From: an uncultured Ruminococcus sp.
GTDB lineage: Bacteria > Bacillota > Clostridia > Oscillospirales > Acutalibacteraceae
DNA length: 64,000 nucleotides
Direction of reading: 5' to 3'
NCBI GenBank assembly: GCA_902763835.1
Contig: CACWTQ010000022.1
Span: 10,133-74,132 of the forward strand
The notes below the pieces were generated by a model. The model saw only the letters and a program-made list of their open reading frames with translations, ran no database searches and was not told the origin of the DNA. The first letter of the stretch is position 1. Each line of letters begins with the position of its first letter. Positions 10,134 to 60,330 of the stretch are shown here, one piece after another. A program made the translations under genes and the position numbers.

Positions 10134-10832
10134 TCAGCGAGCAATAAATTTCTTTATAACTTCAATGGAGGTTTCGGCAGCCTTCTTCAGAAAAGCCGAA
10201 TAATCGAGGTGAGAGTTTTCATCGCCTCCGTCCGAAATTGCTCTTAAAATTGAGAACGGAACATTATTGATGTAACAAGTCTGAGCGATTGCACCGCCCT
10301 CCATTTCACAAGCTATAGCGGAGAACTTATCGATAATACTCTTCTTCTTTTCGTTGTCATTGATAAAGCAGTCACCCGTTGCGATTGTGCCTGTCTTGCA
10401 GTTCAAGCCAAGCTCCTTGACGCTTTCGGAAAGAATGCCTGTAATGTTATCATCTGTAGGAATATACACGATATTAAGCCCGGAAATAAGACCCGGTTCA
10501 TCGCCCAAAGCGGTTGTATCGATATCGTGCTGAACAACCTTATCGGCAATGGCAACATCGCCGATTGAGAGTTCGTCTGTAAGCGTACCTGCAACACCTG
10601 TATTAATGATAACATCGGGACTAAAACCGAGAATCATCGTCTGAGCACAAACCGCTGAAAAGACCTTGCCTATTCCGCAAACTGCCGTGACAACATTTTT
10701 ACCGTAAATCTTGCCTTTCACGAATTCAATTCCGCTTATGTTAATTGTAACACTGTCTTCCATAAGTGCCTTAATTCCGTCAATTTCGATCTGCATAGCA
10801 CCTATAATTCCAATTTCAACCTTATTCTGCAT
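10134..10832 (-). CDS. mtnN: 5'-methylthioadenosine/S-adenosylhomocysteine nucleosidase
   Basis: ATG at 10832 with GGAGGT upstream. Motifs: IGIIGAMQIE, GIGKV, ACEMEGGAIAQ. It overlaps the luxS stop by 11 nt. Confidence 0.9.
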   Translation of the reverse strand: MQNKVEIGIIGAMQIEIDGIKALMEDSVTINISGIEFVKGKIYGKNVVTAVCGIGKVFSAVCAQTMILGFSPDVIINTGVAGTLTDELSIGDVAIADKVVQHDIDTTALGDEPGLISGLNIVYIPTDDNITGILSESVKELGLNCKTGTIATGDCFINDNEKKKSIIDKFSAIACEMEGGAIAQTCYINNVPFSILRAISDGGDENSHLDYSAFLKKAAETSIEVIKKFIAR

Positions 10833-11289
10833 ACTTAAAATCAACCTCCGATTTACTGTTCAAAACATCAAGATAAGCTTTGCATTCTTTAACGCACGGC
10901 TCAAGAGCAAGATTTTTATAATTTCCGCACTCCTTACGCTCCGCACCGAAAACAGGACCCTTATGGTCAATGATTTGCTGCAAAACAGTTTTGACAACCT
11001 CAAGAACTTTCTGCGGTTCTGTATCCTTAACTATCAAATAGAAACCCGTCTGACAGCCCATAGGACCGAAATAAATAACTCTATCCCCTATTTTGGAGCT
11101 TCTGACATATGTCGCAAACATATGCTCAACCGTGTGCATAGTAATGTTATCCATATAATTACCGCAGTTGGGTTTGCGAGTTCGCATATCATAGGTTATC
11201 AAGTCACCGTCTGTTCTTGAAATATATATACCGGGTTCAATTTTGTCGTGGTCTGCTTTAAAGCTTTCTATTTTTCTAACCTTACTCAA
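10822..11289 (-). CDS. luxS: S-ribosylhomocysteine lyase
   Basis: HTVEHM metal motif, FGPMGCQTGFY, and a conserved Cys near the C-terminus. Start set to TTG 11289, 8 nt after AAGGAG. The longer ORF in the track reads through intergenic repeats. Confidence 0.88.
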   Translation of the reverse strand: MSKVRKIESFKADHDKIEPGIYISRTDGDLITYDMRTRKPNCGNYMDNITMHTVEHMFATYVRSSKIGDRVIYFGPMGCQTGFYLIVKDTEPQKVLEVVKTVLQQIIDHKGPVFGAERKECGNYKNLALEPCVKECKAYLDVLNSKSEVDFKYAE

Positions 11290-11307
11290 TTCATTCACTC
11301 CTTTTTT

Positions 11308-11464
11308 CGGACAACGGCGGACAACGTCCGCAGGAAATACATAAATTATTGGTCGGGTACATGAAGTAAGATTAACAAGAACTATCTTCACGTGTTTTCT
11401 GCGGACATTGTCCGCTCGGTCGGGTGCGTGAATTCTCGTCAAAAAAAGACTATCTTCACGTATT
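11308..11464. repeat. mosaic intergenic repeat locus (modules A,A / C,B / A,C,B; B and C inverted relative to other loci)
   Basis: CGGACAACG+GCGGACAACGTCCGC (11308-11331), TTGGTCGGGTA (11349-11359), AACTATCTTCACGTGT (11380-11395), GCGGACATTGTCCGC (11401-11415), TCGGTCGGGTG (11416-11426), GACTATCTTCACGTATT (11448-11464). Confidence 0.85.
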
Positions 11465-11497
11465 AAAAAAGCACTTGCAAAATTAATTGCAAGTGCT
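11465..11497 (-). terminator. intrinsic terminator after the tRNA pair
   Basis: The minus strand reads GCACTTGCAATTAATTTTGCAAGTGC followed by TTTTTT. Confidence 0.75.
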
Positions 11498-11500
11498 TTC

Positions 11501-11587
11501 TGGTGCCGGTGGCCGGACTCGAACCGGCACGGTATCGCTACCGGTGGATTTTGAGTCCACTACGTCTGCCAATTCCATCACACCGGC
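11501..11587 (-). tRNA. tRNA-Leu (anticodon CAA), type II with long variable arm, CCA encoded
   Basis: The reverse complement is GCCGGTG...GTGGA-CTCAAAA-TCCAC...GGTTCGAGTCC...CACCGGCACCA. Acceptor, anticodon and T arms all pair. Length 87 nt. Confidence 0.92.
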
Positions 11588-11591
11588 AAAA

Positions 11592-11684
11592 TGGCGGAGA
11601 GATGGGGATTCGAACCCCAGATACGGCGGAAACCGTATACATGATTTCCAATCATGCTCCTTCGGCCAGCTCGGACATCTCTCC
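11592..11684 (-). tRNA. tRNA-Ser (anticodon GGA), type II, CCA encoded
   Basis: The reverse complement is GGAGAGA...CATGA-TTGGAAA-TCATG...GGTTCGAATCC...TCTCTCCGCCA. Length 93 nt. Confidence 0.92.
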
Positions 11685-13188: not shown

Positions 13189-13255
13189 TCGGTCGGGTTC
13201 GTGATTTAAAACTAAAAATTACTGTCTTCACGTTTTTCCGGTGAGCATTGCCCGC
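13189..13255. repeat. mosaic repeat locus (C, B, degenerate A; inverted)
   Basis: TCGGTCGGGTT (13189-13199), ACTGTCTTCACGT (13221-13233), GTGAGCATTGCCCGC (13241-13255). It abuts the stop codon of the downstream-facing gene. Confidence 0.7.
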
Positions 13256-20150: not shown

Positions 20151-21281
20151 TTAATAATCTGCATACAAAAGATATTCGGAATTACCGCTGATAAATCCGT
20201 ACATACCTTTGTTCGGAGAATATACGTACCAATATGTACCGCTTGCATCGATAACATACACATATTCGCCATAGTAAAGCTCCCCTATAATGGAATCGGG
20301 GTCGCTGCTTTCGTCCGACCTCAAAGCAAGGTAACCTATATCCACATCGACAGTATAAGTCGTATAGCCCGAAGTTGGCGGATCTCCCAAACCTGTATAA
20401 ACAGAGGGTTCTTTCTTGCTTTCGACTTTGCTTTCAGCCTTACTCTCAACCTTGCTTTCCGCCTTGCTCTCAACCTTGCTTTCCGCCTTGCTCTCAACCT
20501 TGCTTTCAACCTTGCTCTCAACCTTGCTTTCAGCCTTGCTCTCTGTTTTGCTTGAAGTAACCTTTGAGCTTGAAGTGGTCTTCTTCTCGATTTTCTGCTC
20601 TGAAAGAATTCCCGAATTAATATAACCCATTTCTTCGGATTTATTAACCGCTCTCCAAACACCGCTTGACATTTTTGCAAGAATTGTTACCATATCATTC
20701 TTTGAAAGAGTGGCAAGCACAGCAGAACCTGCTTGGTCTGTGTAAAAATTGGCATTATCGACAGCTACATAATATACCTGACCGTAAGTTATTTCATCAT
20801 AAAGGTCAACAAGATTAGCCGTCTTAATATACCCGAAATTCCCCAGTGTTTCGCTGTAAATAAAAGACATACTGCTTCCCTCGGCATCATTTTTATCGGC
20901 AACAATACTCTTTATAACCGAAACACTCTCTCCGTAATTCAGCACACCGATAACAGTTCCGCTGCCTTTGGCATCTTCAACAACCTGAACGGTGCTTGCT
21001 CCCGTAACAAACATTGTATTGTACGAAGACGTGTCAAACGACAGCTGACTTGCTTCGGGTTCTTCGGTATCTGTTTGTGTGTCTGTATCCGAAACGTCAA
21101 TATCGGTATCGGTGTCAGTATCTGTATTCTCTTCAGAAACGGTACTTTCGTAAAAAGTGGTTGAGCTGATGTCACTTTGTGAATTTTTCGACACAATTTC
21201 ATTGACATCAATTTTACAGCCGCCGAGAATTCCAATAACCGTAAGTGCGGATAAAATTAACAAATACGCTTTCTTCACCAT
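20151..21281 (-). CDS. lipoprotein with SH3b-like domains and (K/A)ESKVES low-complexity repeat
   Basis: Lipobox ILGGC. Three SH3-like segments end in GYIKTANL, GYINSGIL and GFISGNSEYL. There is a central repeat tract. Confidence 0.65.
   Translation of the reverse strand: MVKKAYLLILSALTVIGILGGCKIDVNEIVSKNSQSDISSTTFYESTVSEENTDTDTDTDIDVSDTDTQTDTEEPEASQLSFDTSSYNTMFVTGASTVQVVEDAKGSGTVIGVLNYGESVSVIKSIVADKNDAEGSSMSFIYSETLGNFGYIKTANLVDLYDEITYGQVYYVAVDNANFYTDQAGSAVLATLSKNDMVTILAKMSSGVWRAVNKSEEMGYINSGILSEQKIEKKTTSSSKVTSSKTESKAESKVESKVESKVESKAESKVESKAESKVESKAESKVESKKEPSVYTGLGDPPTSGYTTYTVDVDIGYLALRSDESSDPDSIIGELYYGEYVYVIDASGTYWYVYSPNKGMYGFISGNSEYLLYADY
20413..20550 (-). repeat. in-frame 12/24-bp tandem coding repeat
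   Basis: CTTGCT(T/C)TC(A/C/G)(A/G)CC units encode SKAESKVESKVESK... Confidence 0.8.
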
Positions 21282-23387: not shown

Positions 23388-23458
23388 AGTAAGCCTCCTT
23401 TGCAGTGTACCCATAACTACACATCATTTTATAATCCTAAATGTTCCTCTCTTTGTTA

Positions 23459-23630
23459 GGAACTGTTGGGAAATAAGTTGAACAATTTAGACGCAGGATA
23501 ATTTGTTCTGTGTTAGGCACAACACCGCAGGAATACTGACGTATTTCAAGTGACGTATTTCAAGGTGTTGTAACGACACACAGGGCAAATTAGACAAGTA
23601 TAAATGTTCAAGTTATTTTCTGACAGTTCC
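23459..23630 (-). mobile_element. MITE-like TIR element M3 (172 bp, with internal 14-bp duplication TGACGTATTTCAAG)
   Basis: Both TIRs are present and it is flanked by TTA/TTA (23456-23458, 23631-23633). Confidence 0.88.
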
Positions 23631-30446: not shown

Positions 30447-31520
30447 TTAAAGCATATTAATAACAGCTATCGCCGCCGCCGCTTCAATTACGGATACCGC
30501 ACGTGTTACAATACAAGGGTCGTGTCTGCCCTTTACGGAAAGAGTTGTATTCTCTTTACTCTGCAAATCTATAGTATTCTGTTTCATAGATATTGAAGCC
30601 GTAGGTTTAATTGCGGCTCTAAAAAGAATAGGCATACCGCTTGTAATACCGCCCAAAGCACCGCCGTGGTTATTCGTTCTTGTGCGGACGTTTCCGTTTT
30701 CGTCATAATAAAATTCATCGTTATTTTTTGAACCCGTGGAACGTGAACCCTCAAAGCCCGAACCGAACTCAATACCCTTAACGGCAGGCACACCGAAAAC
30801 AACGCTTGAAATCACATTTTCAACACCGCCGAACATAGGCTCGCCAACACCTGCGGGCATACCCTGAACTATACATTCTACAACTCCCCCGATACTGTCG
30901 CCCTTTGCTCTTACTGCGTCAACTTCGGCTCTAAGTTCGTTTTCCTTTTCGGGATTCACCAAAGCGAACTTTTCGCCATTAAGTCTGTCAATAAGCTCCT
31001 GTGAAACACCCGTAGGCTCAAACGGGTCGTCATATGTATTGCCGATTGAATAAATATGTGCGGCAATTTCAATACCTTTTCTTTTAAGTATTTGACGGAT
31101 AACAGCACCTGCAAACACAAGATTTGCGGTAAGTCTGCCCGAAAAATGACCGCCGCCACGAACATCGTTAAATCCGTCATACCTAAGATAAGCGGTATAA
31201 TCGGAATGTCCCGGACGAGGAGCATTCATAATGTTGCCGTAATCGCCGGAACGTGTATTTGTATTGTAAATGACAGCCGCAAGCGGAGCACCTGTAGTCA
31301 CTCCGTTGAGAACACCCGACAGAATTTCGGGTTTATCGGCTTCTTTTCGGGGAGTAGCGGTTTTATCGTTGCCCGGTGCTCTCCTTGCCATTTGTCTGTA
31401 AACCTCGTCCATATCTATTTTTTCGCCGCTCGGCAAGCCGTCGATAACTACACCTATTGCCGTTCCGTGGCTTTCACCGAAAACCGATATTTTTACTTTA
31501 TCTCCAAAATAAGAACCCAT
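30447..31520 (-). CDS. aroC: chorismate synthase
   Basis: FGESHG, RPGHSD and GRHDPC motifs. Confidence 0.93.
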   Translation of the reverse strand: MGSYFGDKVKISVFGESHGTAIGVVIDGLPSGEKIDMDEVYRQMARRAPGNDKTATPRKEADKPEILSGVLNGVTTGAPLAAVIYNTNTRSGDYGNIMNAPRPGHSDYTAYLRYDGFNDVRGGGHFSGRLTANLVFAGAVIRQILKRKGIEIAAHIYSIGNTYDDPFEPTGVSQELIDRLNGEKFALVNPEKENELRAEVDAVRAKGDSIGGVVECIVQGMPAGVGEPMFGGVENVISSVVFGVPAVKGIEFGSGFEGSRSTGSKNNDEFYYDENGNVRTRTNNHGGALGGITSGMPILFRAAIKPTASISMKQNTIDLQSKENTTLSVKGRHDPCIVTRAVSVIEAAAAIAVINML

Positions 31521-32776
31521 TATCTATCCACACCCTTTAAAGCTTTATAGTCGTCGAAGAAGTTTGTGTATGATTTAGTAATGCTTTCCTTGTCGGATAT
31601 GACAATTTCGCTCTCGCTTCTCAAAGCCGCAATTGCCATAGACATTACTATTCTGTGGTCGTTGTAACCCTCGGCAAAACCGCCCCGAATGCTCTCCGCA
31701 CCCTTAATCAGCAGACCGTCCTCCGTTTCCGCAGCATTTCCGCCGCAGCCGTTAAGACAATCGGATATTGCCGCAAGCCTGTCACTCTCTTTCAAACGAA
31801 CTCTTTCCGCATTGTAAATTCTGGTTGTACCCTCCGCAAACGACGCACAAACCGCAAGTATCGGAACAAGGTCGGGAATTTGAGAAGCGTCTATATCAAT
31901 TGCTCTCAGATTTCCTGCCTTACATCTTACGCTGTAGTCGCCTTGCTCAACATCAGCACCGAAACGCTTAAGCAGCTCGACAATCTCCTTATCGCCTTGA
32001 AAACTGTCTTTCTTCACACCCTCTGCGGTAACATCACCGCCAATCGCACCTCCGACCAAGAAAAATGCCGCCTGTGACCAGTCGCCCTCCGTTATGTAAT
32101 CACAGGGTTTGTATTTCTGATTACCCTTGATAATATAATCTTCGCCGTCAACATCTATTTCCACACCGAATTGTTTTTGCACAGAAATTGTCATATCTAT
32201 ATACCCTTTTGACTGCAAGGGTGAAGTCAAGTGAATAACGCTGTCACCGTCAAGCAGAGGCAAAGCAAATAGTAAACCTGTGATAAACTGTGAGCTTATA
32301 TCGCCCGGAACATCAAACTTTCCCGAGGCAAGCTGTCCTTTAATTTCAAACGGAAGTCCGCCCGAAGTTATGCACTCCACACCGTGTTTGGGGAGTAAAT
32401 CGGTATACACCCCGAGCGGTCTTTGAGGAAGTCTGCCCTTGCCGTTGAACGTTCCGTTTACACCGCCTGCCGCCGCAACGGGGATAAAAAATCTCACGGT
32501 AGACCCCGATTCACGACAGTCAAAAACTGCGGTTTTATTCTCAAAAATTTTAGTTGAATTTATTGTAAGCTTATCGCCGTCAACGGAAACCTCCGCACCG
32601 AGAGCCTTTATACAGTCGATAGTGGCTGATATATCCTCCGAAAAAGCCACAGGATAAACGGTACTGACCCCCTTAGCAAGTGCGGCACATATAATTGCTC
32701 TGTGAACGTCGCTTTTTGACGGCGGAATTTTAACCGTACCGCAAAGACTTGACGGCTTTACTATAACATTTGACAT
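31520..32776 (-). CDS. aroA: 3-phosphoshikimate 1-carboxyvinyltransferase
   Basis: PPSKSDVHRA, the RLKESDR motif and a 418-aa EPSP synthase layout. The stop overlaps the aroC start. Confidence 0.92.
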   Translation of the reverse strand: MSNVIVKPSSLCGTVKIPPSKSDVHRAIICAALAKGVSTVYPVAFSEDISATIDCIKALGAEVSVDGDKLTINSTKIFENKTAVFDCRESGSTVRFFIPVAAAGGVNGTFNGKGRLPQRPLGVYTDLLPKHGVECITSGGLPFEIKGQLASGKFDVPGDISSQFITGLLFALPLLDGDSVIHLTSPLQSKGYIDMTISVQKQFGVEIDVDGEDYIIKGNQKYKPCDYITEGDWSQAAFFLVGGAIGGDVTAEGVKKDSFQGDKEIVELLKRFGADVEQGDYSVRCKAGNLRAIDIDASQIPDLVPILAVCASFAEGTTRIYNAERVRLKESDRLAAISDCLNGCGGNAAETEDGLLIKGAESIRGGFAEGYNDHRIVMSMAIAALRSESEIVISDKESITKSYTNFFDDYKALKGVDR

Positions 32777-32787
32777 TTCTACTCCCC

Positions 32788-32903
32788 TTTTTTAACACGT
32801 GAAGATAGTTATTCTAATCTTTTTAACACGTGAAGATAGTTATTCTAATCTTTTTAACACGTGAAGATAGTTATCTTAATCCTTACTTTTTCTACCCGAC
32901 CGA
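32788..32903 (+). repeat. mosaic repeat locus: module B x3 in ~31-bp tandem units, then module C
   Basis: AACACGTGAAGATAGTT at 32794, 32825 and 32856; ACCCGACCGA at 32894-32903. It begins 6 nt from the aroA Shine-Dalgarno sequence. Confidence 0.9.
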
Positions 32904-33111
32904 AAGTTAATTTTATTCGGTAGTTTTTGACATACTTTATTTAGTAATTTAAAATTGTTCTATTATAGTTTATTTTGGTTTTAACATATTGAATAGAAAT
33001 ATATAATATAAATTTAAATATCTAAAGTCAGTTAAGCAACAATCAATTAAACTTTCAAACATCAGAAAATCATCTTAGAAAAATATCTTTCCTCAAAAAT
33101 ATAATTACACA

Positions 33112-33942
33112 TTATTCATTGAGTTTTTCTTTTATAAGCCGGCTTTTTTTCAAAAGCTCTTTCAGAACTTCCGAATTATTTTCATCTATCGCATTTTTAA
33201 TATTTGTAAGATTATCTATCAATATGGAAATTTCCTCCGATAAAGGTTCTTTGTTGCTGAGAAACAAATCCGTCCAAAGGTTCTCGTTGATGTTCGCAAC
33301 TCTCGACACATCACGGTAGCTCCCTGCCGAAAATCCCTTGTGATTCTCACAGCAAGGACTCATCACATACGCACAAGCCAAAACGTGCGGCACTTGCGAA
33401 GTAAACGCAATCATTCTGTCATGCTCCTCGGGAGTTGAAATTCTGACAATCCCGAAGCCTATCTCCTTTGCAAGCGTTGCCACCGTGTCAACCGACTTTT
33501 CGTCCGCACTGCACGGAACTACTATATAGCTTGCGTTTTGAAAAAGCTCCGCTTCAGCTGCGTCGTATGAAAATTTCTCTTTGCCTGCCATAGGGTGAGA
33601 GCCGACATACTGCAAGCCGTTTTTGTCGCAAATTTCCGTGAGCCGTCCGCAAATCTCCGTTTTAATGCCGCAGACGTCTGTTATTATACAGCCTTTTTTG
33701 AAATGCTCCGAGTTCTCCTCGACATACGAAACAATATGCTCGGGATATGTACACATATACACAATATCTGCTTTGGAAAGGCTTACAGCCGTTCCTATTT
33801 CGTGAATTGCACCGTCGGCAAAAGCACGTTTTGCCGTGGCTTCACTTCTGTTGATACCTATAACTCTGTGGTCGGTATACTTTGTGAACGCTTTTGCCAG
33901 CGAACCGCCGATTATACCAAGACCGACTATCACAATATTCAT
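33112..33942 (-). CDS. tyrA: prephenate dehydrogenase
   Basis: ATG at 33942 (MNIVIVGLGIIGGSLAKAF Rossmann motif) with AGAGGT upstream. The GSHPMAG motif is present. Confidence 0.88.
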   Translation of the reverse strand: MNIVIVGLGIIGGSLAKAFTKYTDHRVIGINRSEATAKRAFADGAIHEIGTAVSLSKADIVYMCTYPEHIVSYVEENSEHFKKGCIITDVCGIKTEICGRLTEICDKNGLQYVGSHPMAGKEKFSYDAAEAELFQNASYIVVPCSADEKSVDTVATLAKEIGFGIVRISTPEEHDRMIAFTSQVPHVLACAYVMSPCCENHKGFSAGSYRDVSRVANINENLWTDLFLSNKEPLSEEISILIDNLTNIKNAIDENNSEVLKELLKKSRLIKEKLNE

Positions 33943-33958
33943 ACCTTTACTAACCTCT

Positions 33959-34301
33959 TTTTTTAACACGTGAAGATAGTTATTTTAATCCTTACTTTTT
34001 CTGCCCGACCGATTTTTTAACACGTGAAGATAGTTATTTTAATCCTTACTTTTTCTACCCGACCGATTTTTTAACACGTGAAGATAGTTATTTTAATCCT
34101 TACTTTTTCTACCCGACCGATTTTTTAATACGTGAAGATAGTTATTCTAGCCTTACTTTTTTCTACCCGACCGATTTTTTAACACGTGAAGATAGTTATT
34201 TTAATCCTTACTTTTTCTACCCGACCGATTTTTTAACACGTGAAGATAGTTATTCTAATCCTTACTTTTTCTATTATACTTTATTTTTTAACCTGTACCG
34301 A
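33959..34301 (+). repeat. 54-bp tandem array of modules B+C (6 B copies, 5 C copies plus a degenerate sixth)
   Basis: AACACGTGAAGATAGTT (AATACGTG... at 34127) recurs at 33965, 34019, 34073, 34127, 34181 and 34235, an exact 54-bp period. Each is followed by ...CTACCCGACCGA. There are no unique spacers. Confidence 0.92.
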
Positions 34302-34342
34302 TTATAAATCAAATTCAAGAGATGTTGCACATTGTTTTCCCT

Positions 34343-34418
34343 CCTGCGGACGTTGTCCGCCGTTGTCCGCCGTTGTCCGCCGTTGTCCGCCGTTGTCCGC
34401 CGCCACAATTACGCATTA
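34343..34418. repeat. inverted module A, then 10-bp unit CGTTGTCCGC x5, then module E
   Basis: CCTGCGGACGTTGTCCGC; 34351-34400 is five exact copies of CGTTGTCCGC; CACAATTACGCATTA (34404-34418) overlaps the stop codon of the gene at 34416. Confidence 0.9.
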
Positions 34419-37403: not shown

Positions 37404-37552
37404 GCGGACAACGTCCGCAGGAAACAAGCAAAAATAGTCTTTATATTTTCAACTTCACGCACTCGCCCACTGTAATTACACATTACAAATTACGAGCAAA
37501 AAACAAATTCTCGTTTGATTGATTAATTTCCGCCTATCACAATTACGCATTA
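37404..37552. repeat. mosaic repeat locus: module A, degenerate B/C, E-like, E
   Basis: GCGGACAACGTCCGC (37404-37418), CCCACTGTAATTACACATTACAAA (about 37461-37485), CTATCACAATTACGCATTA (37534-37552, 3 nt from a stop codon). Confidence 0.7.
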
Positions 37553-38866: not shown

Positions 38867-38881
38867 GCGGACAACGTTCGC
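38867..38881. repeat. module A copy with one G:T (wobble) stem position
   Basis: GCGGACAACGTTCGC followed by AGGAAA, as in other copies. Confidence 0.7.
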
Positions 38882-39724: not shown

Positions 39725-39878
39725 GGAACTGTCAGAAAATAACTTGAACATTTATACTTGTCTAATTTGCCCTGTGTGTCGTTACAACACCTTGAAATAC
39801 GTCAGTATTCCTGCGTGTGCCTAACACAGAACAAATTATCCTGCGTCTAAATTGTTCAACTTATTTCCCAACAGTTCC
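39725..39878 (+). mobile_element. MITE-like TIR element M4 (154 bp, full length)
   Basis: Both TIRs are present with TAA/TAA flanks (39722-39724, 39879-39881). It starts 3 nt after the stop of the preceding gene. Confidence 0.9.
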
Positions 39879-39885
39879 TAATTTT

Positions 39886-39925
39886 GCGTACAATGTCTGC
39901 TTTTTTGCCGACCGTTGCCGACCAA
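39886..39925. repeat. degenerate mosaic modules (A-like GCGTACAATGTCTGC, then GCCGACCG and GCCGACCAA)
   Basis: It resembles GCGGACAATGTCCGC plus module C, with substitutions. Confidence 0.45.
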
Positions 39926-44438: not shown

Positions 44439-44542
44439 GGAACTGTCAGAAAATAACTTGAACATTTATACTTGTCTAATTTGCCCTGTGTGTCGTTACA
44501 ACACCTTGAAATACGTCAGTATTCCTGCGGTCCAACAGTTCC
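44439..44542 (+). mobile_element. MITE-like TIR element M6 (104 bp, right arm largely deleted)
   Basis: The left TIR and core are intact, but the right end is only TCCAACAGTTCC. TAA/TAA flanks (44436-44438, 44543-45). Its last base is part of the ispF TAG stop. Confidence 0.85.
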
Positions 44543-45009
44543 TAATCTATCAGGCAGACTGCCTGTGCCGATATTCCCTCTTCCCTGCCTGTAAAGCCTA
44601 ATTTCTCTTCGGTAGTCGCTTTTACATTCACACAGTCGATATCAATGCCGCAAACGTTGGCAATGTTCTCCCTCATTTGCTGAATATACGGTTTCATCTT
44701 GGGCTTTTGTGCAATAATTGTTGCATCTATATTTGATATTTTGTAACCTTTTTCACCAATTGCCGTGCGTACCTCTTTCAAAAGTACAAGACTGTCCGCA
44801 CCCTCGTATTTTGGGTCGTTATCGGGAAAAAGTCCGCCTATGTCGCCCAGTGCCGCCGCTCCCAGCAGAGAATCCATTATTGCGTGTAAAAGTACGTCTG
44901 CGTCGGAATGACCAAGCAAACCTAACGTATGAGGTATCTCAACACCGCCTATAATCAGCTTTCTGCCCTCAACAAGCTTATGTACATCGTAACCGTGACC
45001 TATTCTCAT
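44542..45009 (-). CDS. ispF: 2-C-methyl-D-erythritol 2,4-cyclodiphosphate synthase
   Basis: [23 protein letters not shown] and the [12 protein letters not shown]-type motif. Confidence 0.93.
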
Positions 45010-45721: not shown

Positions 45722-46195
45722 TTATAAATGTACAGTAAGGAAATTAGCAAGCAAATCAACCGCTGCAACACAGAGATACACTACTACAATAAAACCGACA
45801 ATTGACAAAATTTTAACAATTCTGCGTTTAGTCGGCGACATCTCTTTCCACTCAGGTTCGTCGGGGAGGTCAAGCTTTTCGTAATACTCGGGGATTTCCA
45901 TAGCCGAAACACTACTGAGAGCGTCAATACCCTTTTTAAAAAAGCTGATTGGAACATAATAGACATAGCTGCCGTCCGCAACGCCCATAACAGGCGAAAT
46001 TTTTGAAACAACCTGCTCCGAATACGGGATTTTTGCTTTGACAAGAGTTTGCTCGACTATACCTTTATTTACCTCGTTTACGATGATTAATTTTACAGGC
46101 TGGTTTAAATCTATTTTACTTGAAAACTTTTTTCCGCAGTCGCATTTTTTGTTTTCAGAAAATTCTATTTTTTTACATTTTGAACAATATTGCAT
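45722..46195 (-). CDS. hypothetical protein with N-terminal CxxC..CxC zinc ribbon and C-terminal TM
   Basis: 157-aa ORF: MQYCSKCKK...CDCGKKF, and a C-terminal hydrophobic helix. Confidence 0.55.
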   Translation of the reverse strand: MQYCSKCKKIEFSENKKCDCGKKFSSKIDLNQPVKLIIVNEVNKGIVEQTLVKAKIPYSEQVVSKISPVMGVADGSYVYYVPISFFKKGIDALSSVSAMEIPEYYEKLDLPDEPEWKEMSPTKRRIVKILSIVGFIVVVYLCVAAVDLLANFLTVHL

Positions 46196-46256
46196 TATAT
46201 TAGCTCCTTAAAAAACTTCTGTATTAATAATACTACAAAAAGTATATATTTGTCAA

Positions 46257-46337
46257 CCGGGCAACGCCCGGCGGGCAACGCCCGCTGGAAATACGTGAAG
46301 ACAGTTACTAAAAACATTAACTTATGAACCCGACCGA
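46257..46337 (+). repeat. mosaic repeat locus: two variant A hairpins, B, C
   Basis: CCGGGCAACGCCCGG (46257-46271) overlaps GCGGGCAACGCCCGC (46271-46285). Then ATACGTGAAGACAGTT (46291-46306) and ACCCGACCGA (46328-46337). Confidence 0.85.
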
Positions 46338-46371
46338 AAATTAATTTTAACGCAGGTGATAAAGTCAAACC

Positions 46372-46400
46372 TTTACAAATTCGTCAAATAATGGTATTAT
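46372..46400 (+). promoter_or_regulatory. candidate promoter of murT-gatD
   Basis: TTTACA, a 17-nt spacer, then TATTAT. Confidence 0.4.
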
Positions 46401-46445
46401 TATAAATAAGAAAAAGAAAAGAATACAAAACTCGGAGGTTGTAAA

Positions 46446-47777
46446 ATGCGTAAAATTTTAGCAATCTGGGCGGCAAAGTTAGCCGCTGCCGGTGCAAGAC
46501 TTCTCGGCAAGAACGGCAGCTCTATGCCCGGCTCAATCGCTTTGAAAATTTGTCCCGATATCCTCACAAGGCTTTCAAACGATATCGAAAAGGATATTAT
46601 AGCCGTTTGGGGTACTAACGGCAAAACTACAACTAACAATATGATTTACACCGTTCTCGAAAATCAAGGCTATAAGATAGTATGTAACAAAGTGGGTTCA
46701 AATATGCTTTCGGGTGTTGTTTCCGCTTTCATTTCGTACAGTACTCTCAGCGGCAGGGTTAAGGCTGATTATGCCTGTCTTGAAATGGACGAAGCTTATG
46801 CCCGTATTATTTTAAAGTACCTCACCCCCACAAAAATTGTTATCACAAATCTTTTCCGTGACCAAATGGATCGTTACGGCGAAATCGACACAACCATTTC
46901 ATATATACAAATGGCTCTCGACAAGGCTAAGGACGCTACGCTTATTCTCAACGGCGACGACCCTCTTACCGCTTCTCTCGGCACGAATTACAAGAATACC
47001 CGATATTACGGTATCACCGAAAATCTCGGTTTGAACCTTAACGAAACCCGTGAGGGACGTTACTGCCGTGCCTGCGGAAACGAGCTTAAGTACGACTTTT
47101 ACCAGTATGGTCAACTGGGTAAGTATCACTGCGACAAGTGCGGATTTTCCCGACCTATGCCCCAATATGACGGTAAAAATATTACTGTTGACGATTATGT
47201 TAGTTTTGATGTATGCTCAACTCACGTTGATTTACCGTGCAAGGGTATTTACAATATTTACAACGCTCTTGCGGCTTTTGCGTTCTGCGACAGCTGCGGC
47301 ATTGAAAAATCCGACATCGCTAAGGGTTTGCAGAAGTACAAGGGTCAAATCGGCAGAATGGAAGAGTTCACGATTAAGAACAAGCTTGTTGTTTTCAACC
47401 TTGCGAAAAATCCTGCGAGCTTCAATCAGAGTATCGGAAACATTATCAACGAAAAGCGTACAAAAGACGTTATAATCGGCATTAACGACAACGACCCCGA
47501 CGGCAACGACGTTTCGTGGCTCTGGGACGTTGACTTCGAGAAGCTCAAAAACGATTCGATTACAAGCTACACAACCACGGGTATTCGCTCAAAGGATATG
47601 GCTGTCCGCTTGAAATACTGCGACATCGACGAAAAGAAAATGACTGTCGGCGGCGATATGAAGCAGGATATTCTGAACGCTGTAAACGGCAAGGGCGAAA
47701 GAGTTTACATTGTGGTAAATTACACGCTGCTGTTTTCGACTAAAAAGATTTTGAGTGAACTGGAGGAAGAAAAATGA
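46446..47777 (+). CDS. murT: lipid II isoglutaminyl synthase subunit MurT (Mur ligase family)
   Basis: GTNGKTTT P-loop, a Cys4 ribbon (CRACGNEL...CDKCGF) and a C-terminal DUF1727-like region. It is coupled to gatD by an ATGA overlap. Confidence 0.88.
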   Translation: MRKILAIWAAKLAAAGARLLGKNGSSMPGSIALKICPDILTRLSNDIEKDIIAVWGTNGKTTTNNMIYTVLENQGYKIVCNKVGSNMLSGVVSAFISYSTLSGRVKADYACLEMDEAYARIILKYLTPTKIVITNLFRDQMDRYGEIDTTISYIQMALDKAKDATLILNGDDPLTASLGTNYKNTRYYGITENLGLNLNETREGRYCRACGNELKYDFYQYGQLGKYHCDKCGFSRPMPQYDGKNITVDDYVSFDVCSTHVDLPCKGIYNIYNALAAFAFCDSCGIEKSDIAKGLQKYKGQIGRMEEFTIKNKLVVFNLAKNPASFNQSIGNIINEKRTKDVIIGINDNDPDGNDVSWLWDVDFEKLKNDSITSYTTTGIRSKDMAVRLKYCDIDEKKMTVGGDMKQDILNAVNGKGERVYIVVNYTLLFSTKKILSELEEEK

Positions 47778-50759: not shown

Positions 50760-51096
50760 TATCTTCATCAAAATTCACTCTTCTGTAATTGTCAATATTG
50801 ATTTTGTCCGCCATAACTTCAATGCTGTTATGCAAAATCAAAGCTTCTTTTTGTGCCTTTGTAAGCTGTTTAATTCTGTATTCAAGCCGACAGGCAAGCG
50901 TTCTGTTATCACTTTCCCACACCGCTTCAAGCTTCTTGGCGGTGTGGTTTTTTGTGTATTTTGCACATTTTTCGTTTTTGGAAAAATGCTCCGTCATTCG
51001 GCGTTTTACATCTGTTGTAATGCCTGTGTAAATACTGTTGTCCGTACATCTTAACATATATGTATAATATTTTTGATTATTGTTATTCATAGTCAT
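50743..51096 (-). CDS. GIY-YIG nuclease family protein (UPF0213-like)
   Basis: YYTYMLRCTDNSIYTGITTDVKRRMTEH. Confidence 0.8.
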   Translation of the reverse strand: MTMNNNNQKYYTYMLRCTDNSIYTGITTDVKRRMTEHFSKNEKCAKYTKNHTAKKLEAVWESDNRTLACRLEYRIKQLTKAQKEALILHNSIEVMADKINIDNYRRVNFDEDITLYP

Positions 51097-51556
51097 CTTC
51101 TAAAAACATAATATGATTCTGTAAAATTTTACCGCAATTTTTGCAGGGCATTTTATTGAAAATTTTCGGCATTTTCCAACAGTCAATGTAAGTAAGCATA
51201 ACGGAGTCACCGCTCTCAAAAAACGGCATTAAAACACGTCCATTATTGTGTCGGCACTCTCTGCACAGCCAATTTTCTTTGTAAAAAACGTGATGAAATT
51301 CGCCGTCAATGAGCATACACAAAACAGCAATATTCCAAGTTTTATAATTGGTTTTTAAACGTAATATTCCGAAACGCAGATTGTATTTATCGCAAACCGT
51401 TGGTATATACAATAGATTCCCTATGATATTATCCGAAAAATATTCACTGACAATTTCGCTTTTTAAAAAGCTTTCTTCAAGACCCTTTTTCACAATTATT
51501 GTTTCTGTACCGTCAATATTTATTGTGCTTTCAAAGTATTTTGAAATTTCGGTCAT
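51083..51556 (-). CDS. hypothetical protein with two CxxC pairs
   Basis: 157 aa with CRECRH ... CKNCGK. It overlaps the GIY-YIG start by 14 nt. Confidence 0.55.
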   Translation of the reverse strand: MTEISKYFESTINIDGTETIIVKKGLEESFLKSEIVSEYFSDNIIGNLLYIPTVCDKYNLRFGILRLKTNYKTWNIAVLCMLIDGEFHHVFYKENWLCRECRHNNGRVLMPFFESGDSVMLTYIDCWKMPKIFNKMPCKNCGKILQNHIMFLEDDYE

Positions 51557-53804: not shown

Positions 53805-53897
53805 GACACGTGAAGATAGTTATATATTAACATAACTTTGCGTACCCGACCGAAAGTTGTTTTTATTGAGGAGTTTTAGGTTTCTCCTTTTATAGTT
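53805..53897 (+). repeat. mosaic repeat locus: B, C, D
   Basis: GACACGTGAAGATAGTT (53805-53821), ACCCGACCGA (53844-53853), and TTGAGGAGTTTTAGGTTTCTCCTTTTATAGTT (53866-53897) with a GGAG/CTCC stem. Confidence 0.85.
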
Positions 53898-54970: not shown

Positions 54971-55111
54971 GGAACTGTTGGGAAATAAGTTGAACAATTT
55001 AGACGCAGGATAATTTGTTCTGTGTTAGGCACAACACCGCAGGAATACTGACGTATTTCAAGGGGGCAAATTAGACAAGTATAAATGTTCAAGTTATTTT
55101 CTGACAGTTCC
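54971..55111 (-). mobile_element. MITE-like TIR element M8 (141 bp)
   Basis: Both TIRs are present with TTA/TTA flanks (54968-70, 55112-14). It lies between the phosphatase and Fic genes. Confidence 0.88.
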
Positions 55112-59294: not shown

Positions 59295-59981
59295 TTACGT
59301 GCCGATTTTAATCACCGTTAAAATCATAACGTAAAAATCATAAAAGAAGTTAAACTTTTCTATATAATTAAGATTGAATTTCATTTTTTGCGGAAGGATA
59401 TCTTCGATATACGCCTTTTCCACATCATCGGCTTTTTCGAGAATTTCCTCTTCATTGCGGAACTGTATGCTTGTCATAGATGTTATACCTGCCGGCATAA
59501 GCAAGGTTGCATACATTTCGGTGGTATATTTTTCAACATATCTTTCGACTTCGGGTCGAGTGCCGACGAACGACATATCCCCCGAGAGGACGTTGAAAAG
59601 CTGAGGCATTTCGTCAAGTCTGAACTTGCGAAGAACGTGACCGACCTTAGTAATACGGCTGTCCGTGCCGGCGGTGACCTGAGAATTTTTGCTGTTATCG
59701 TTCACAAACATAGTACGGAACTTAAAAATTTTAAATATCTTGCCTCCCGAAGTAACACGTCTTTGTCTGAAAAAAACAGGACCTTTCGAGTCGGCTTTTA
59801 CCAAAACCGCAACCACCGCCATAGGAATTGCCAGAATGATTAAAAGACTCACGGCGAAAATTATATCAAAAAATCTTTTAAAGAATAAATCAATTTTTTT
59901 CTTGGAAAGGATTTCATAATATTTTTTCACGTCATCATTTTGCATTTCGGGTGGAAGAGATGAAAATTTAGGCAATAGCAT
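59295..59981 (-). CDS. undecaprenyl-phosphate sugar phosphotransferase (bacterial sugar transferase family)
   Basis: ATG at 59981, 12 nt after AAAGG. Motifs: DEMPQLFNVLSGDMSFVGTRP. Confidence 0.85.
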   Translation of the reverse strand: MLLPKFSSLPPEMQNDDVKKYYEILSKKKIDLFFKRFFDIIFAVSLLIILAIPMAVVAVLVKADSKGPVFFRQRRVTSGGKIFKIFKFRTMFVNDNSKNSQVTAGTDSRITKVGHVLRKFRLDEMPQLFNVLSGDMSFVGTRPEVERYVEKYTTEMYATLLMPAGITSMTSIQFRNEEEILEKADDVEKAYIEDILPQKMKFNLNYIEKFNFFYDFYVMILTVIKIGT

Positions 59982-60000
59982 TTTTATCACAAACCTTTTG

Positions 60001-60248
60001 CGGACAACGTCCGTTTTTTTAATACGTGAAGACAGTCCTTTTTTAATACGTGAAGACAGTCCGTTTTTTTAATACGTGAAGACAGTCCGTTTAAAATCTG
60101 GCTTTACGAACCCGACCGATAGTTGATTTTTGGCGAGAGTTTTAGGTTACTCTTTACATAGTTTATTTTTTGGCGAGAGTTTCAGGTTACTCTTTACATA
60201 GTTTATTTTTGGGCGAGAGTTTCAGGTTACTCTTTACATAGTTTATTA
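60001..60248 (+). repeat. mosaic repeat locus: A, B x3 (24-26-bp units), C, D x3 (40-bp units)
   Basis: GCGGACAACGTCCG (60001-14); AATACGTGAAGACAGTCC at 60022, 60046 and 60072; ACCCGACCGA (60111-20); TGGCGAGAGTTT(T/C)AGGTTACTCTTTACATAGTTTATTTTT at 60131, 60171 and 60211. Confidence 0.9.
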
Positions 60249-60330
60249 TACACGTTTTCGGAAATTTTTTCAACTGTTTTTTAATATGCTGAAATATTTT
60301 ATTTATACTTTGTCTTTTATAGGTTTAGGG

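What the first reader, a model, noticed from the sequence alone, without database searches (positions are those of the whole stretch)
46257..46285. Compensatory base changes preserve the hairpins of modules A and D
Seen in sequence. Module A occurs with three different, fully paired stems: GCGGAC/GTCCGC (11317, 37404, 60001), GCGGGC/GCCCGC (46271-46285) and CCGGGC/GCCCGG (46257-46271). The copy at 38867 has GCGGAC/GTTCGC, a G:T pair that would be a tolerated G:U wobble in RNA. The loop varies (AAC, AAT). Module D has AGAGT-TTTAGGTT-ACTCT at 60137-60154 but (A)GGAG-TTTTAGGTTT-CTCC(T) at 53869-53888, which is an A-to-G change matched by T-to-C. Inference: selection acts on the structure (RNA or single-stranded DNA hairpin) rather than on primary sequence, as seen for REP elements and structured RNAs.
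Basis: partly seen in the sequence, partly recalled or inferred. Interest (0 to 1): 0.62.

Follow-up and report, generated by a model that had tools for sequence, protein, structure and literature searches.

The report
Hairpin head of mosaic intergenic repeat
The two GC-rich hairpins are one module of an apparently undescribed ~200-base repeat that has spread through the intergenic DNA of one rumen Ruminococcus lineage; its stem does change by matched substitutions, as in other bacterial repeat families, but the second claimed case (module D) does not hold up.

Summary
The sequence at 46257-46285 is as described: two perfect 6-bp/3-nt-loop hairpins sharing G46271. Module A is real and far above chance. 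In 528 kb from the window and two related rumen Ruminococcus MAGs, copies chosen only by their downstream neighbour (stems unselected) are 49/57 perfectly paired. They use at least five stems (GCGGAC, GCGGGC, GTCGGC, GCAGAC, (A)CCGGC). All 6 pairs show double-sided changes, in 30 cells versus 8.2±2.3 in shuffles (0/500).

Three caveats apply. CCGGGC/GCCCGG is unique and comes from a local 14-bp tandem duplication. The 60000 copy has a terminal G·T. The module D claim is at chance level, and D does not recur outside the window.

A is the head of an oriented ~200-nt MITE-like mosaic element: (GCGGACAACG)n, hairpin, AGGAGAT, 46-nt TIR, 78-nt core, inverted TIR, A-run. The element is lineage-restricted, insertion-polymorphic, and variable in unit number between near-identical strains. 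The block at 46257-46366 is absent from all orthologous murT spacers. The A-run end faces gene starts 59:14 and often lies 1-4 nt from the Shine-Dalgarno. I read it as a new member of the REP/BIME/BOX/MITE kind. It is structure-constrained, but the level (ssDNA or RNA) is unresolved.

The parts
46257..46271 (+). A hairpin 1, CCGGGC-AAC-GCCCGG. It is the first unit of a 14-bp tandem duplication and the left edge of the inserted block.
   Evidence: ssDNA fold. This stem is unique in 528 kb. An RNA contig from a related strain, and the orthologous spacers, diverge exactly at 46256/46257.
46271..46285 (+). A hairpin 2, GCGGGC-AAC-GCCCGC, of the GCGGGC sub-family.
   Evidence: The GCGGGC/GCCCGC stem recurs at about 10 other loci.
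46286..46292 (+). Linker TGGAAAT. This is the conserved NGGA(A/G)A(C/T) 3' flank of A.
   Evidence: The 3' flank tetranucleotide is AGGA in 44 and TGGA in 13 of 86 copies.
46293..46337 (+). B-C unit (ACGTGAAGACAGT ... ACCCGACCGA). It is one arm of the ~46-nt terminal inverted repeat. The pre-C arm is degenerate here (CTTATGA).
46257..46366 (+). The whole A-A-B-C(+tail) block. It is a lineage-specific insertion between two divergent promoter-like sites.
   Evidence: It is absent from the murT spacers of L075-L080 (MurT 90-96% identical), while both promoters are conserved. L069 and L071 carry a further 75-nt module at 46366/46367.
11307..11331 (+). A half-unit (TCGGACAACG) plus hairpin GCGGAC-AAC-GTCCGC. 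Its outer side abuts the SD of a minus-strand gene.
11349..11461 (-). Two C'-B' units on the minus strand, separated by hairpin GCGGAC-ATT-GTCCGC (11401-11415, AAT loop on the minus strand).
13189..13255 (-). A-B-C on the minus strand. Its A copy has decayed (GCGGGC-AAT-GCTCAC, one C.A and one G.T).
32789..32903 (+). Three 31-bp B units plus C. The T-run end abuts the SD of gene 31520-32776 (minus strand).
   Evidence: An RNA contig spans gene and array with two fewer units.
33959..34273 (+). 54-bp B-C unit, 5.8 copies. The T-run end abuts the SD of gene 33112-33969 (minus strand).
   Evidence: RNA contigs show a 397-nt shorter array and a 13-nt head-unit indel.
34346..34402 (-). A hairpin GCGGAC-AAC-GTCCGC, preceded on the minus strand by 10-mer GCGGACAACG half-units (5.2 copies in all).
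   Evidence: Identical in the near-identical strains L072 and L073.
37404..37418 (+). A perfect A hairpin next to a decayed B (4 of 13 mismatches).
38867..38881 (+). A hairpin with a G:T at pair 4 (GCGGAC/GTTCGC). The same variant occurs at three further loci.
39886..39925 (+). A degenerate A-like hairpin (GCGTAC-AAT-GTCTGC), followed by two TTGCCGACCG units. These are the reverse of half-units of the GTCGGC sub-family.
53808..53888 (+). B-C unit (53808-53853, arms ACGTGAAG/CTTTGCGT with two wobbles), followed by the D-like hairpin AGGAG-TTTTAGGTTT-CTCCT (53869-53888). It lies between a stop codon and a terminator-like hairpin.
60000..60014 (+). A hairpin with a terminal G.T (GCGGAC-AAC-GTCCGT), 10 nt from the start of a minus-strand gene.
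60015..60119 (+). Three 24/26-bp B units and one C.
60119..60247 (+). Module D, a 40-bp unit in 3.2 copies with hairpin AGAGT-TTTAGGTT-ACTCT at 60136-60153. It is a diverged version of the first hairpin of the element core.

Best explanation
Module A is the GC-rich hairpin 'head' of a non-autonomous, oriented, ~200-nt mosaic repeat. The repeat's layout is: optional (GCGGACAACG)n half-units, the 6-bp/3-nt-loop hairpin, linker AGGAGAT, a ~46-nt terminal inverted repeat (B...C), a ~78-nt core, the inverted repeat again, and TTAAAAAA. It has multiplied in one rumen Ruminococcus lineage.

Shown:
- High copy number and modular, tandemly variable architecture.
- Gain and loss between close strains.
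- Restriction to one lineage.
- A stem that varies only in matched pairs, while the loop (AAY) and 3' flank (NGGA) stay fixed.

Inferred:
- The head works as a folded single strand. Only heads that can fold are propagated, so each stem version is a sub-family descended from, or converted to, a paired source copy.
- The likeliest setting is recognition of hairpin DNA by whatever enzyme or replication process moves or amplifies the element. Slippage or stutter at the hairpin would then produce the half-unit arrays and the 14-bp duplication at 46257-46285.
- Because the elements sit just upstream of ribosome-binding sites and inside operons, the same hairpin is also carried into mRNA. An added RNA-level effect is possible but not required.
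For: Family and abundance:
- The motif has 17 matches against 0.65 expected.
- There are 86 perfect family hairpins in 528 kb.

Pairing constraint:
- 49 of 57 anchor-selected copies are perfect, using several different stems.
- All 6 pairs show double-sided change, in 30 cells versus 8.2±2.3 in shuffles (0/500). Slid registers pair at only 23-36%.
- A is the only helix with clear covariation in complete elements: 2 of its 4 predicted pairs (4 cells), against a single cell in the 31 TIR pairs.
- A related GTCGCC-GAGC/AAAC-GGCGAC hairpin sits at the same position upstream of B, mainly in the second MAG.
- A is perfect beside decayed B in about 5 of 5 cases.

Architecture:
- 15 complete copies, with A at one end only.
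- The long TIR stem folds at -77 kcal/mol, z = -7.7.

Mobility and instability:
- L048 carries a ~160-nt block where two window genes overlap.
- A 75-nt module is present or absent between strains with identical MurT.
- The A-A-B-C block is missing from all six orthologous spacers.
- There are no modules in about 45 kb of syntenic relatives.
- Unit-number variants appear in RNA contigs.

DNA-level hint:
- The hairpins at 46257-46285 lie between two divergent promoter-like sites.
- They fold equally well on both strands.

Known families excluded:
- No Rfam family matches.
Against: - No transposase or autonomous parent was found between distant TIR pairs or by a Y1 transposase probe. Only about 0.6 Mb was searched, so this is low power.
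- No clear target-site duplication was found.
- No new insertion was caught in the act, so deletion rather than insertion cannot be excluded for any single polymorphism.
- Perfect stems beside decayed B fit in-place maintenance better than 'needed only for spreading'.
- The strong polarity towards gene starts (59:14) and the presence inside transcript-derived contigs would also fit a host-level RNA role.
- Copies are related by descent, so shuffle controls overstate the number of independent events. There are roughly 5-7 independent pair-level changes.
Confidence: 0.55

Rival explanations
1. Host-level RNA element. The repeat is kept because, once transcribed in a 5' UTR or between cistrons, its hairpins act on the mRNA. 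Possible actions are protection against 5'-to-3' or endonucleolytic decay, a processing site, or an influence on ribosome access to the adjacent Shine-Dalgarno. Selection at each locus would keep the A stem paired.
For: - The A-run end is followed within 1-4 nt by an SD, a start codon and an ORF in 19 of 83 copies, against 1.9% at random positions.
- That end faces gene starts 59:14.
- RNA-derived contigs run from flanking genes through arrays at depths similar to those genes. Other A-B copies sit in RNA contigs.
- Stems stay perfect beside decayed B.
- The same G:T variant recurs at 4 loci, and G.T outnumbers A.C 15:7 on the AAC-loop strand.
- Wobble-rich B/pre-C arms occur, such as ACGTGAAG/CTTTGCGT.
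Against: - The A end itself is unbiased with respect to neighbouring genes (31:36).
- The copy in the finding lies outside both predicted transcripts.
- The 15:7 split is not significant (two-sided binomial about 0.13).
- The RNA data are unstranded assemblies that may contain DNA.
- The elements are absent from close relatives and vary between near-identical strains, so no locus depends on them.
- No terminator-like or Rfam-like signal was found.
Confidence: 0.2
2. Mutational by-product without selection. Hairpin-forming DNA undergoes template switching and slippage during replication. This converts imperfect palindromes into perfect ones and duplicates half-units, so matched changes arise automatically and say nothing about function.
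For: - Half-unit arrays occur with periods of 7, 8, 10 and 14 nt, always beside the hairpin.
- The 'third stem' at 46257 is explained by a 14-bp duplication.
- The same stutter occurs at the T-run head and at 24-54-nt scales, and varies between strains.
- Perfect stems beside decayed B are what continual templated correction would give.
Against: - The far longer TIR palindrome shows sequence conservation and uncorrected mismatches rather than matched changes.
- The B/pre-C arms drift freely.
- G:T and A.C copies persist at several loci, and one G:T variant has itself spread to 4 loci.
- Stem variants are shared across different downstream modules and linkers, as expected for propagating sub-families.
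Confidence: 0.15
3. Double-stranded operator. The 6-N3-6 inverted repeat is the binding site of a dimeric DNA-binding protein, such as a regulator or nucleoid protein.
For: - It has inverted-repeat geometry with a fixed 3-bp spacer and a conserved flank.
- Several arrays lie just upstream of -35 boxes: 9 of 92 against a 2% background.
Against: - Half-sites differ at up to 3 of 6 positions within one genome while staying complementary. A single sequence-reading protein would not tolerate this.
- Only one half-site is iterated in arrays, and the periods are not helical (7-14 nt).
- The TGTCAA at 46251-46256 is native promoter sequence that is also present where the element is absent.
Confidence: 0.03

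Closest known systems
REP / BIME elements and REPINs of Proteobacteria (with RAYT transposases). PMC2817692, PMC3116915 and PMC3337134 were seen as search results only; their defining features as used here are from my own knowledge.
   Same: Short GC-rich extragenic hairpins at high copy number, combined with other motifs into mosaic arrays. The stems are kept paired through matched changes, and the elements are found inside transcription units.
   Different: - There is no conserved 5' GTAG-type tetranucleotide.
- Neighbouring hairpins are direct rather than inverted doublets (24 versus 4).
- The hairpin is only 15 nt and sits at one end of a larger TIR-bounded element.
- The bias is towards gene starts, not gene 3' ends.
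- The host is a Firmicute.
- No RAYT gene was seen (low power).
BOX elements of Streptococcus pneumoniae (boxA-boxB(n)-boxC) and related Gram-positive mosaic repeats such as RUP, bcr1 of the Bacillus cereus group, and STAR of Staphylococcus aureus (own knowledge; not tested by sequence)
   Same: Modular intergenic repeats in low-GC Gram-positives. They have a variable number of tandem internal modules, predicted stable folds, a location near gene 5' regions, no coding capacity, and unknown or trans-acting mobilisation.
   Different: - The module sequences are unrelated as far as can be judged. No comparison was run because no reference sequences were at hand.
- The asymmetric GC hairpin head with iterated half-units, and the A-run end lying next to the SD, are not features I know from those families.
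MITEs in general (Correia, ERIC/IRU and others; review PMC3184786 and survey PMC11602168, of which only an abstract and one passage were read)
   Same: About 200 nt, non-coding, with long terminal inverted repeats that fold into one long stem. It shows presence/absence polymorphism and lineage-specific expansion.
   Different: - No target-site duplication and no parent IS were identified.
- An extra structure-constrained hairpin lies outside one TIR.
- There is extensive tandem iteration of sub-modules.
- There are no matches in viral contigs.

Membership tests
REP / REPIN (RAYT-mobilised) | Short GC-rich extragenic palindrome present at high copy number | tested here: met
   There are 86 perfect family hairpins in 528 kb, and the listed copies lie in intergenic stretches. 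The motif is 17 versus 0.65 expected in the window.
REP / REPIN (RAYT-mobilised) | Conserved tetranucleotide (GTAG-like) at the 5' foot of the stem | tested here: not met
   The 5' flank is variable. Its commonest form, AACG (19 of 86), is just the preceding half-unit. Only the 3' flank NGGA is conserved.
REP / REPIN (RAYT-mobilised) | Two REPs in inverted orientation at a fixed short spacing (REPIN doublet) | tested here: not met
   Neighbouring hairpins within 400 nt are direct in 24 cases and inverted in 4, with no fixed spacing.
REP / REPIN (RAYT-mobilised) | A RAYT (Y1/HUH transposase) gene in the genome, flanked by REPs | tested here: inconclusive
The whole genome was not available, and the query rests on memory.
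MITE | Terminal inverted repeats bounding a short non-coding element | tested here: met
   B-C and C'-B' arms flank a ~78-nt core in 15 copies. There are 31 predicted TIR pairs, mostly invariant. The fold is -77 kcal/mol with z = -7.7. No conserved ORF is present.
MITE | Target-site duplication | tested here: inconclusive
   For L048 versus window 31538, a TTT/TTTAA duplication is possible, but the T-run is part of the element. The 75-nt insert at 46366/7 has none.
MITE | A parent insertion sequence with matching ends that encodes the transposase | tested here: inconclusive
   No protein recurs between TIR pairs 0.8-3.8 kb apart. Only a fraction of each genome was held.
MITE | Presence/absence polymorphism at orthologous sites | tested here: met
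BOX-type modular repeat | Ordered modules with a variable number of tandem internal units | tested here: met
   Units of 10, 13, 24/26, 30, 31, 40 and 54 nt are iterated 2-6 times. Unit number differs between strains. This is a resemblance in design only.
BOX-type modular repeat | Sequence similarity to boxA/boxB/boxC | not tested
Intrinsic terminator | GC-rich stem followed by a T-run on the transcribed strand | tested here: not met
   There are 0 terminator-like sites in 46100-46500. A is followed by NGGA(A/G)A on one strand and by variable sequence on the other.
Curated structured RNA family (Rfam 15) | A match to a covariance model | tested here: not met
   The gathering scan of the window finds only two tRNAs. 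There is no match at E <= 1 on a complete element or on 59950-60300.

The most novel reading that the evidence does not exclude
The repeat is a polar mobile element that seeks ribosome-binding sites. Its hairpin head would be the recognition or priming site of an as yet unidentified enzyme acting on single-stranded DNA. The half-unit and head 'stutter' arrays would be the footprints of that enzyme's initiation or termination. By landing 1-4 nt upstream of Shine-Dalgarno sequences, it would install the same structured leader in front of hundreds of genes. That would give one Ruminococcus lineage a genome-wide, recently acquired layer of post-transcriptional control.
Probability: 0.15. Interest if true: 0.7.

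Novelty: new member of a known kind. Interest (0 to 1): 0.42.

Why it matters
Interspersed hairpin repeats are well studied in Proteobacteria and a few pathogens. They are hardly described in the Clostridia that dominate gut and rumen communities. This family occupies about 2% of the window and breaks metagenome assemblies at its copies.

It matters for four reasons:
- It shows a clean contrast between a structure-constrained module (A) and sequence-constrained modules (the TIRs) within one element.
- Its unit number varies between otherwise identical strains, so it could serve as a strain marker.
- It is very often wedged directly against ribosome-binding sites, so it may alter the expression of many genes.
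- For the finding itself, the result separates a sound inference (A) from an over-reading (D, and the duplicated stem).

Tried and rejected
- **Metagenome scan with MurT for orthologous sites.** It returned only two distant loci and was of no use.
- **Exact-protein look-ups.** The genes at 59295-59990 and 10134-10844 are not on record.
- **Near-identical strains L069-L074.** The A hairpins are identical, so no in-place substitutions could be observed.
- **D as a dispersed family.** An nhmmer search finds it only in the window. Tail-anchored D-like copies are too few and too low in complexity to test.
- **TTGTCAA as the true terminus of the element, or an outward -35 carried by it.** Rejected, because the same TGTCAA and -10 are present in relatives that lack the element.
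- **A peptide encoded after the SD-like AGGAG.** I considered GTG AAG ATA... within B, and ATG TGC AAC ATC TCT TGA at 34.3 kb. Rejected because the frames and lengths are not conserved among copies.
- **A promoter inside the element pointing at the downstream gene.** I saw no convincing -35/-10 in the consensus by eye. This was not formally scanned.
- **Terminator function.** Rejected, because no T-run follows the stem.
- **Autonomous parent or Y1 transposase.** Not found, with low power.
- **Phage carriage.** No matches in viral contigs.
- **Literature.** Neither the motifs nor any Ruminococcus repeat family was found.
- **Strand of transcription.** Every RNA run available is an unstranded assembly.

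Full report
**1. The observation**

The window reads CCGGGCAACGCCCGG at 46257-46271 and GCGGGCAACGCCCGC at 46271-46285. These are two perfect hairpins with 6-bp stems and 3-nt loops, and they share G46271. As single-stranded DNA both strands fold them equally well, at -12.3 and -12.2 kcal/mol.

The canonical copy GCGGACAACGTCCGC is at 11317 and 37404, and 38867 has the G:T variant GTTCGC.

Tandem Repeats Finder shows that the two hairpins of the finding are a perfect 14-bp duplication, CGGGCAACGCCCGG x1.9. The stem CCGGGC/GCCCGG occurs only here in 528 kb. Its outer C:G pair can therefore be a by-product of the duplication. It should not be counted as a compensatory substitution.

**2. Where the window comes from, and more copies**

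I scanned the genome collection for the neighbouring modules only (ACGTGAAGAYAGT, a gap of 20-25, then CCCGACCGA), so that neither the A nor the D stem was part of the query. All came from two rumen MAGs labelled uncultured Ruminococcus sp.. The window is 96-97% identical to one of them where they overlap. Rfam finds only two tRNAs in the window, and nothing at E <= 1 on complete elements.

**3. The test of module A**

I chose sites only by an exact downstream anchor, either ACGTGAAG of module B or GGTCGAAGG of a second module. Among these, 57 sites have an AAY loop in the expected place, and 49 of those are perfectly paired. They use the stems GCGGAC/GTCCGC (the majority), GCGGGC/GCCCGC, GTCGGC/GCCGAC and GCAGAC/GTCTGC. 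A further stem, (A)CCGGC/GCCGG(C), is paired at five of six positions. A related hairpin, GTCGCC-GAGC/AAAC-GGCGAC, sits at the same position upstream of B, mainly in the second MAG.

I then ran the pair count on 46 distinct rows. Six chance anchors were kept in, and the window's first hairpin was added by hand. The result is 88.8% paired cells, double-sided change at all six pairs, and 30 compensated cells against 8.2±2.3 in shuffles (0 of 500). Registers slid by 1-3 columns pair at only 23-36%.

The copies are related by descent, so the independent events number about five to seven, not thirty. In a similarity-selected set of 106 copies, 78 are perfect. The defects are 15 G.T against 7 A.C, which leans towards the AAC-loop strand but is not significant.

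**4. The test of module D**

A sequence-only profile of the three 40-nt units at 60119-60247 finds nothing in the 464 kb of related loci, and does not even recover the 53869 copy. D-like sequences sharing the tail CTaTTAyAGTTTAT number about nine.

On their alignment, only one pair changes on both sides. In the shuffle control, 301 of 500 do as well, and a register slid by -3 pairs better (85% versus 74%). The D claim is therefore not supported beyond chance.

**5. What A belongs to**

B's ACGTGAAG pairs with a CTTCACG(T) just before C. Downstream of C, many copies run through a conserved ~78-nt core and end in an inverted C and then an inverted B. Fifteen complete copies give this oriented architecture:

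(GCGGACAACG)n, A hairpin, AGGAGAT, B...C, core, C'...B', TTAAAAAA

A lies outside one TIR only. The other end is an A/T run that is itself often iterated, as (TTTTTTTAAyACG)n. A complete copy folds into one long TIR stem at -77.3 kcal/mol, with z = -7.7, and A forms a separate hairpin.

In an alignment of 11 complete copies, the 31 TIR pairs are almost invariant. A is the only helix with clear double-sided changes, at 2 of its 4 predicted pairs. A also heads a second module type, AGGAGAGGGTCGAAGGTGCRACATCT.

**6. Turnover**

- L048 carries a ~160-nt B-C-core block where two window genes overlap start-to-stop.
- Contigs whose MurT protein is identical to the window's differ from it by a clean 75-nt module at 46366/46367. 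They otherwise differ almost only by indels in repeats.
- Orthologous murT spacers from six contigs (MurT 90-96% identical) keep both promoter-like sites but lack the whole A-A-B-C block. The block starts exactly at 46257.
- An RNA-derived contig from a related strain diverges at that same base.
- About 45 kb of syntenic DNA from those relatives contains no B or C module at all, whereas the window has about ten module loci.

No protein recurs between distant TIR pairs. A Y1 transposase probe found nothing, and there is no clear target-site duplication. The patterns are absent from viral contigs.

**7. Relation to genes and transcripts**

The A/T-run end is followed within 1-4 nt by a Shine-Dalgarno, a start codon and a long ORF in 19 of 83 copies, against 1.9% at random positions. 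It faces a gene start 59 times and a gene end 14 times. The A end is unbiased, at 31 to 36.

Metatranscriptome contigs run from flanking genes through arrays. One spans 32400-32995 with two fewer B units. Another joins 33987 to 34385 across a shorter array and continues into the next gene.

At the locus of the finding, the hairpins lie between two divergent promoter-like sites, and so outside both predicted transcripts.

**8. Interpretation**

The stem of A is constrained for pairing and not for sequence. The loop, the 3' flank and the TIRs are constrained as sequence. The variant stems are multi-copy sub-families found with different linkers and downstream modules, and no substitution was seen at an orthologous site. 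The covariation is therefore between propagating lineages of the repeat.

Recognisable A copies beside decayed B modules, about five cases, all keep perfect stems. This hints at maintenance in place, by selection or by palindrome-templated correction.

I favour a hairpin recognised as folded single-stranded nucleic acid during the element's amplification, with slippage at the hairpin producing the half-unit arrays (confidence 0.55). A host-level RNA role (0.2) and a purely mutational origin of the matched changes (0.15) remain open. A duplex operator is unlikely (0.03).

**9. Comparison with known families**

In design, the element resembles REP/BIME, BOX and MITE families. It fails two REP/REPIN criteria that I could test: there is no conserved 5' tetranucleotide, and the hairpins form direct rather than inverted doublets. 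It meets the MITE criteria of TIRs, small size and insertion polymorphism, but a duplication and a parent element are unproven.

Literature searches found neither the motifs nor a described Ruminococcus repeat family. I class it as a new member of a known kind.

Noticed in passing
window 32789 and 33959 (ends of arrays next to genes 31520-32776 and 33112-33969, minus strand); many loci, e.g. L002 455, L039, L047 374, L053, L057 5171: The A/T-run end of the element (ACTATCTTCACGTrTTAAAAAA) lies 1-4 nt from a Shine-Dalgarno plus start codon in 19 of 83 copies, against 1.9% at random positions. It faces gene starts 59:14, while the A-hairpin end is unbiased. This could be target preference for an A-tract plus GGAG, or selection for a 5'-UTR role.
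   Followed up: partly
window ~23456-23610, 39786-39885, 44459-44560, 55040-55090: A second, unrelated repeat family (...CCTTGAAATACGTCAGTATTCCTGCG...GTGCCTAACACAGAACAAATTATCCTGCGTCTAAATTGTTCAA...). Its CCTGCG-bounded pieces account for the 34-, 17-, 12-, 8- and 4-nt indels that separate otherwise identical strains (L069, L072) from the window.
   Followed up: partly
window 46366/46367; L069 1963-2037; L071 99-173: A 75-nt module is present in strains with identical MurT and absent from the window. It has its own inverted repeat (GTGTGCG...CGCACAC) and an A-like hairpin, and shows no target duplication. Its presence completes a hairpin, AGGTGA-TAAAG-TCACCT, that is truncated in the window.
   Followed up: partly
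window 32790-32851, 33957, 33987-34385: Metatranscriptome contigs show unit-number variants of the arrays: two fewer 31-bp B units, an extra 13-nt head unit TTTTTTTAACACG, and an array 397 nt shorter. In the shorter form the A units read GCGGACAACG-TCCGC-CGTTGTCCGC, an alternative hairpin with a 10-bp stem.
   Followed up: partly
window 46251-46256 and the outer flanks of A arrays in L013, L014, L042, L045, L056, L062: TGTCAA, the reverse of a -35 TTGACA, lies within 45 nt outside A arrays in 9 of 92 cases against a 2% background. Several of these have a good -10 at 17-18 nt. At 46251 it is the native promoter of the leftward gene, so the elements often sit directly upstream of -35 boxes.
   Followed up: yes
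window 34318-34345, minus strand: The A hairpin is followed by AGGAGG, a 7-nt spacer, and then ATG TGC AAC ATC TCT TGA, a five-codon mini-ORF. The frame is not kept in the related module (AGGAGAGGGTCGAAGGTGCRACATCT) elsewhere, so this is probably not coding.
   Followed up: partly
window 51486 (within ORF 51083-51556, minus strand): A one-base difference in a T-run between the window and L070 changes the called ORF (157 aa in L069, 109 aa in L070). The gene sits in a block next to Imm42- and GIY-YIG-domain genes.
   Followed up: no
window 20415-20543: A 12/24-bp tandem repeat (CTTGCTCTCAACCTTGCTTTCAGC x5.4) lies inside a long ORF region. It is unrelated to the modules.
   Followed up: no
window 11465-11684: tRNA-Leu(CAA) and tRNA-Ser(GGA) on the minus strand are followed by a terminator-like hairpin. 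The A / C'-B' array comes next, directly before the following gene's SD.
   Followed up: no
L001 535, L019 2584, L028 5454, L054 716 (positions as listed): A different GC hairpin with a 4-nt loop (GTCGCC-GAGC/AAAC/AAGC-GGCGAC) occupies the A position upstream of B, with linker GGGCGAT. It occurs mainly in the second MAG. It differs from the GTCGGC stem by a G:C to C:G flip plus one loop base.
   Followed up: partly
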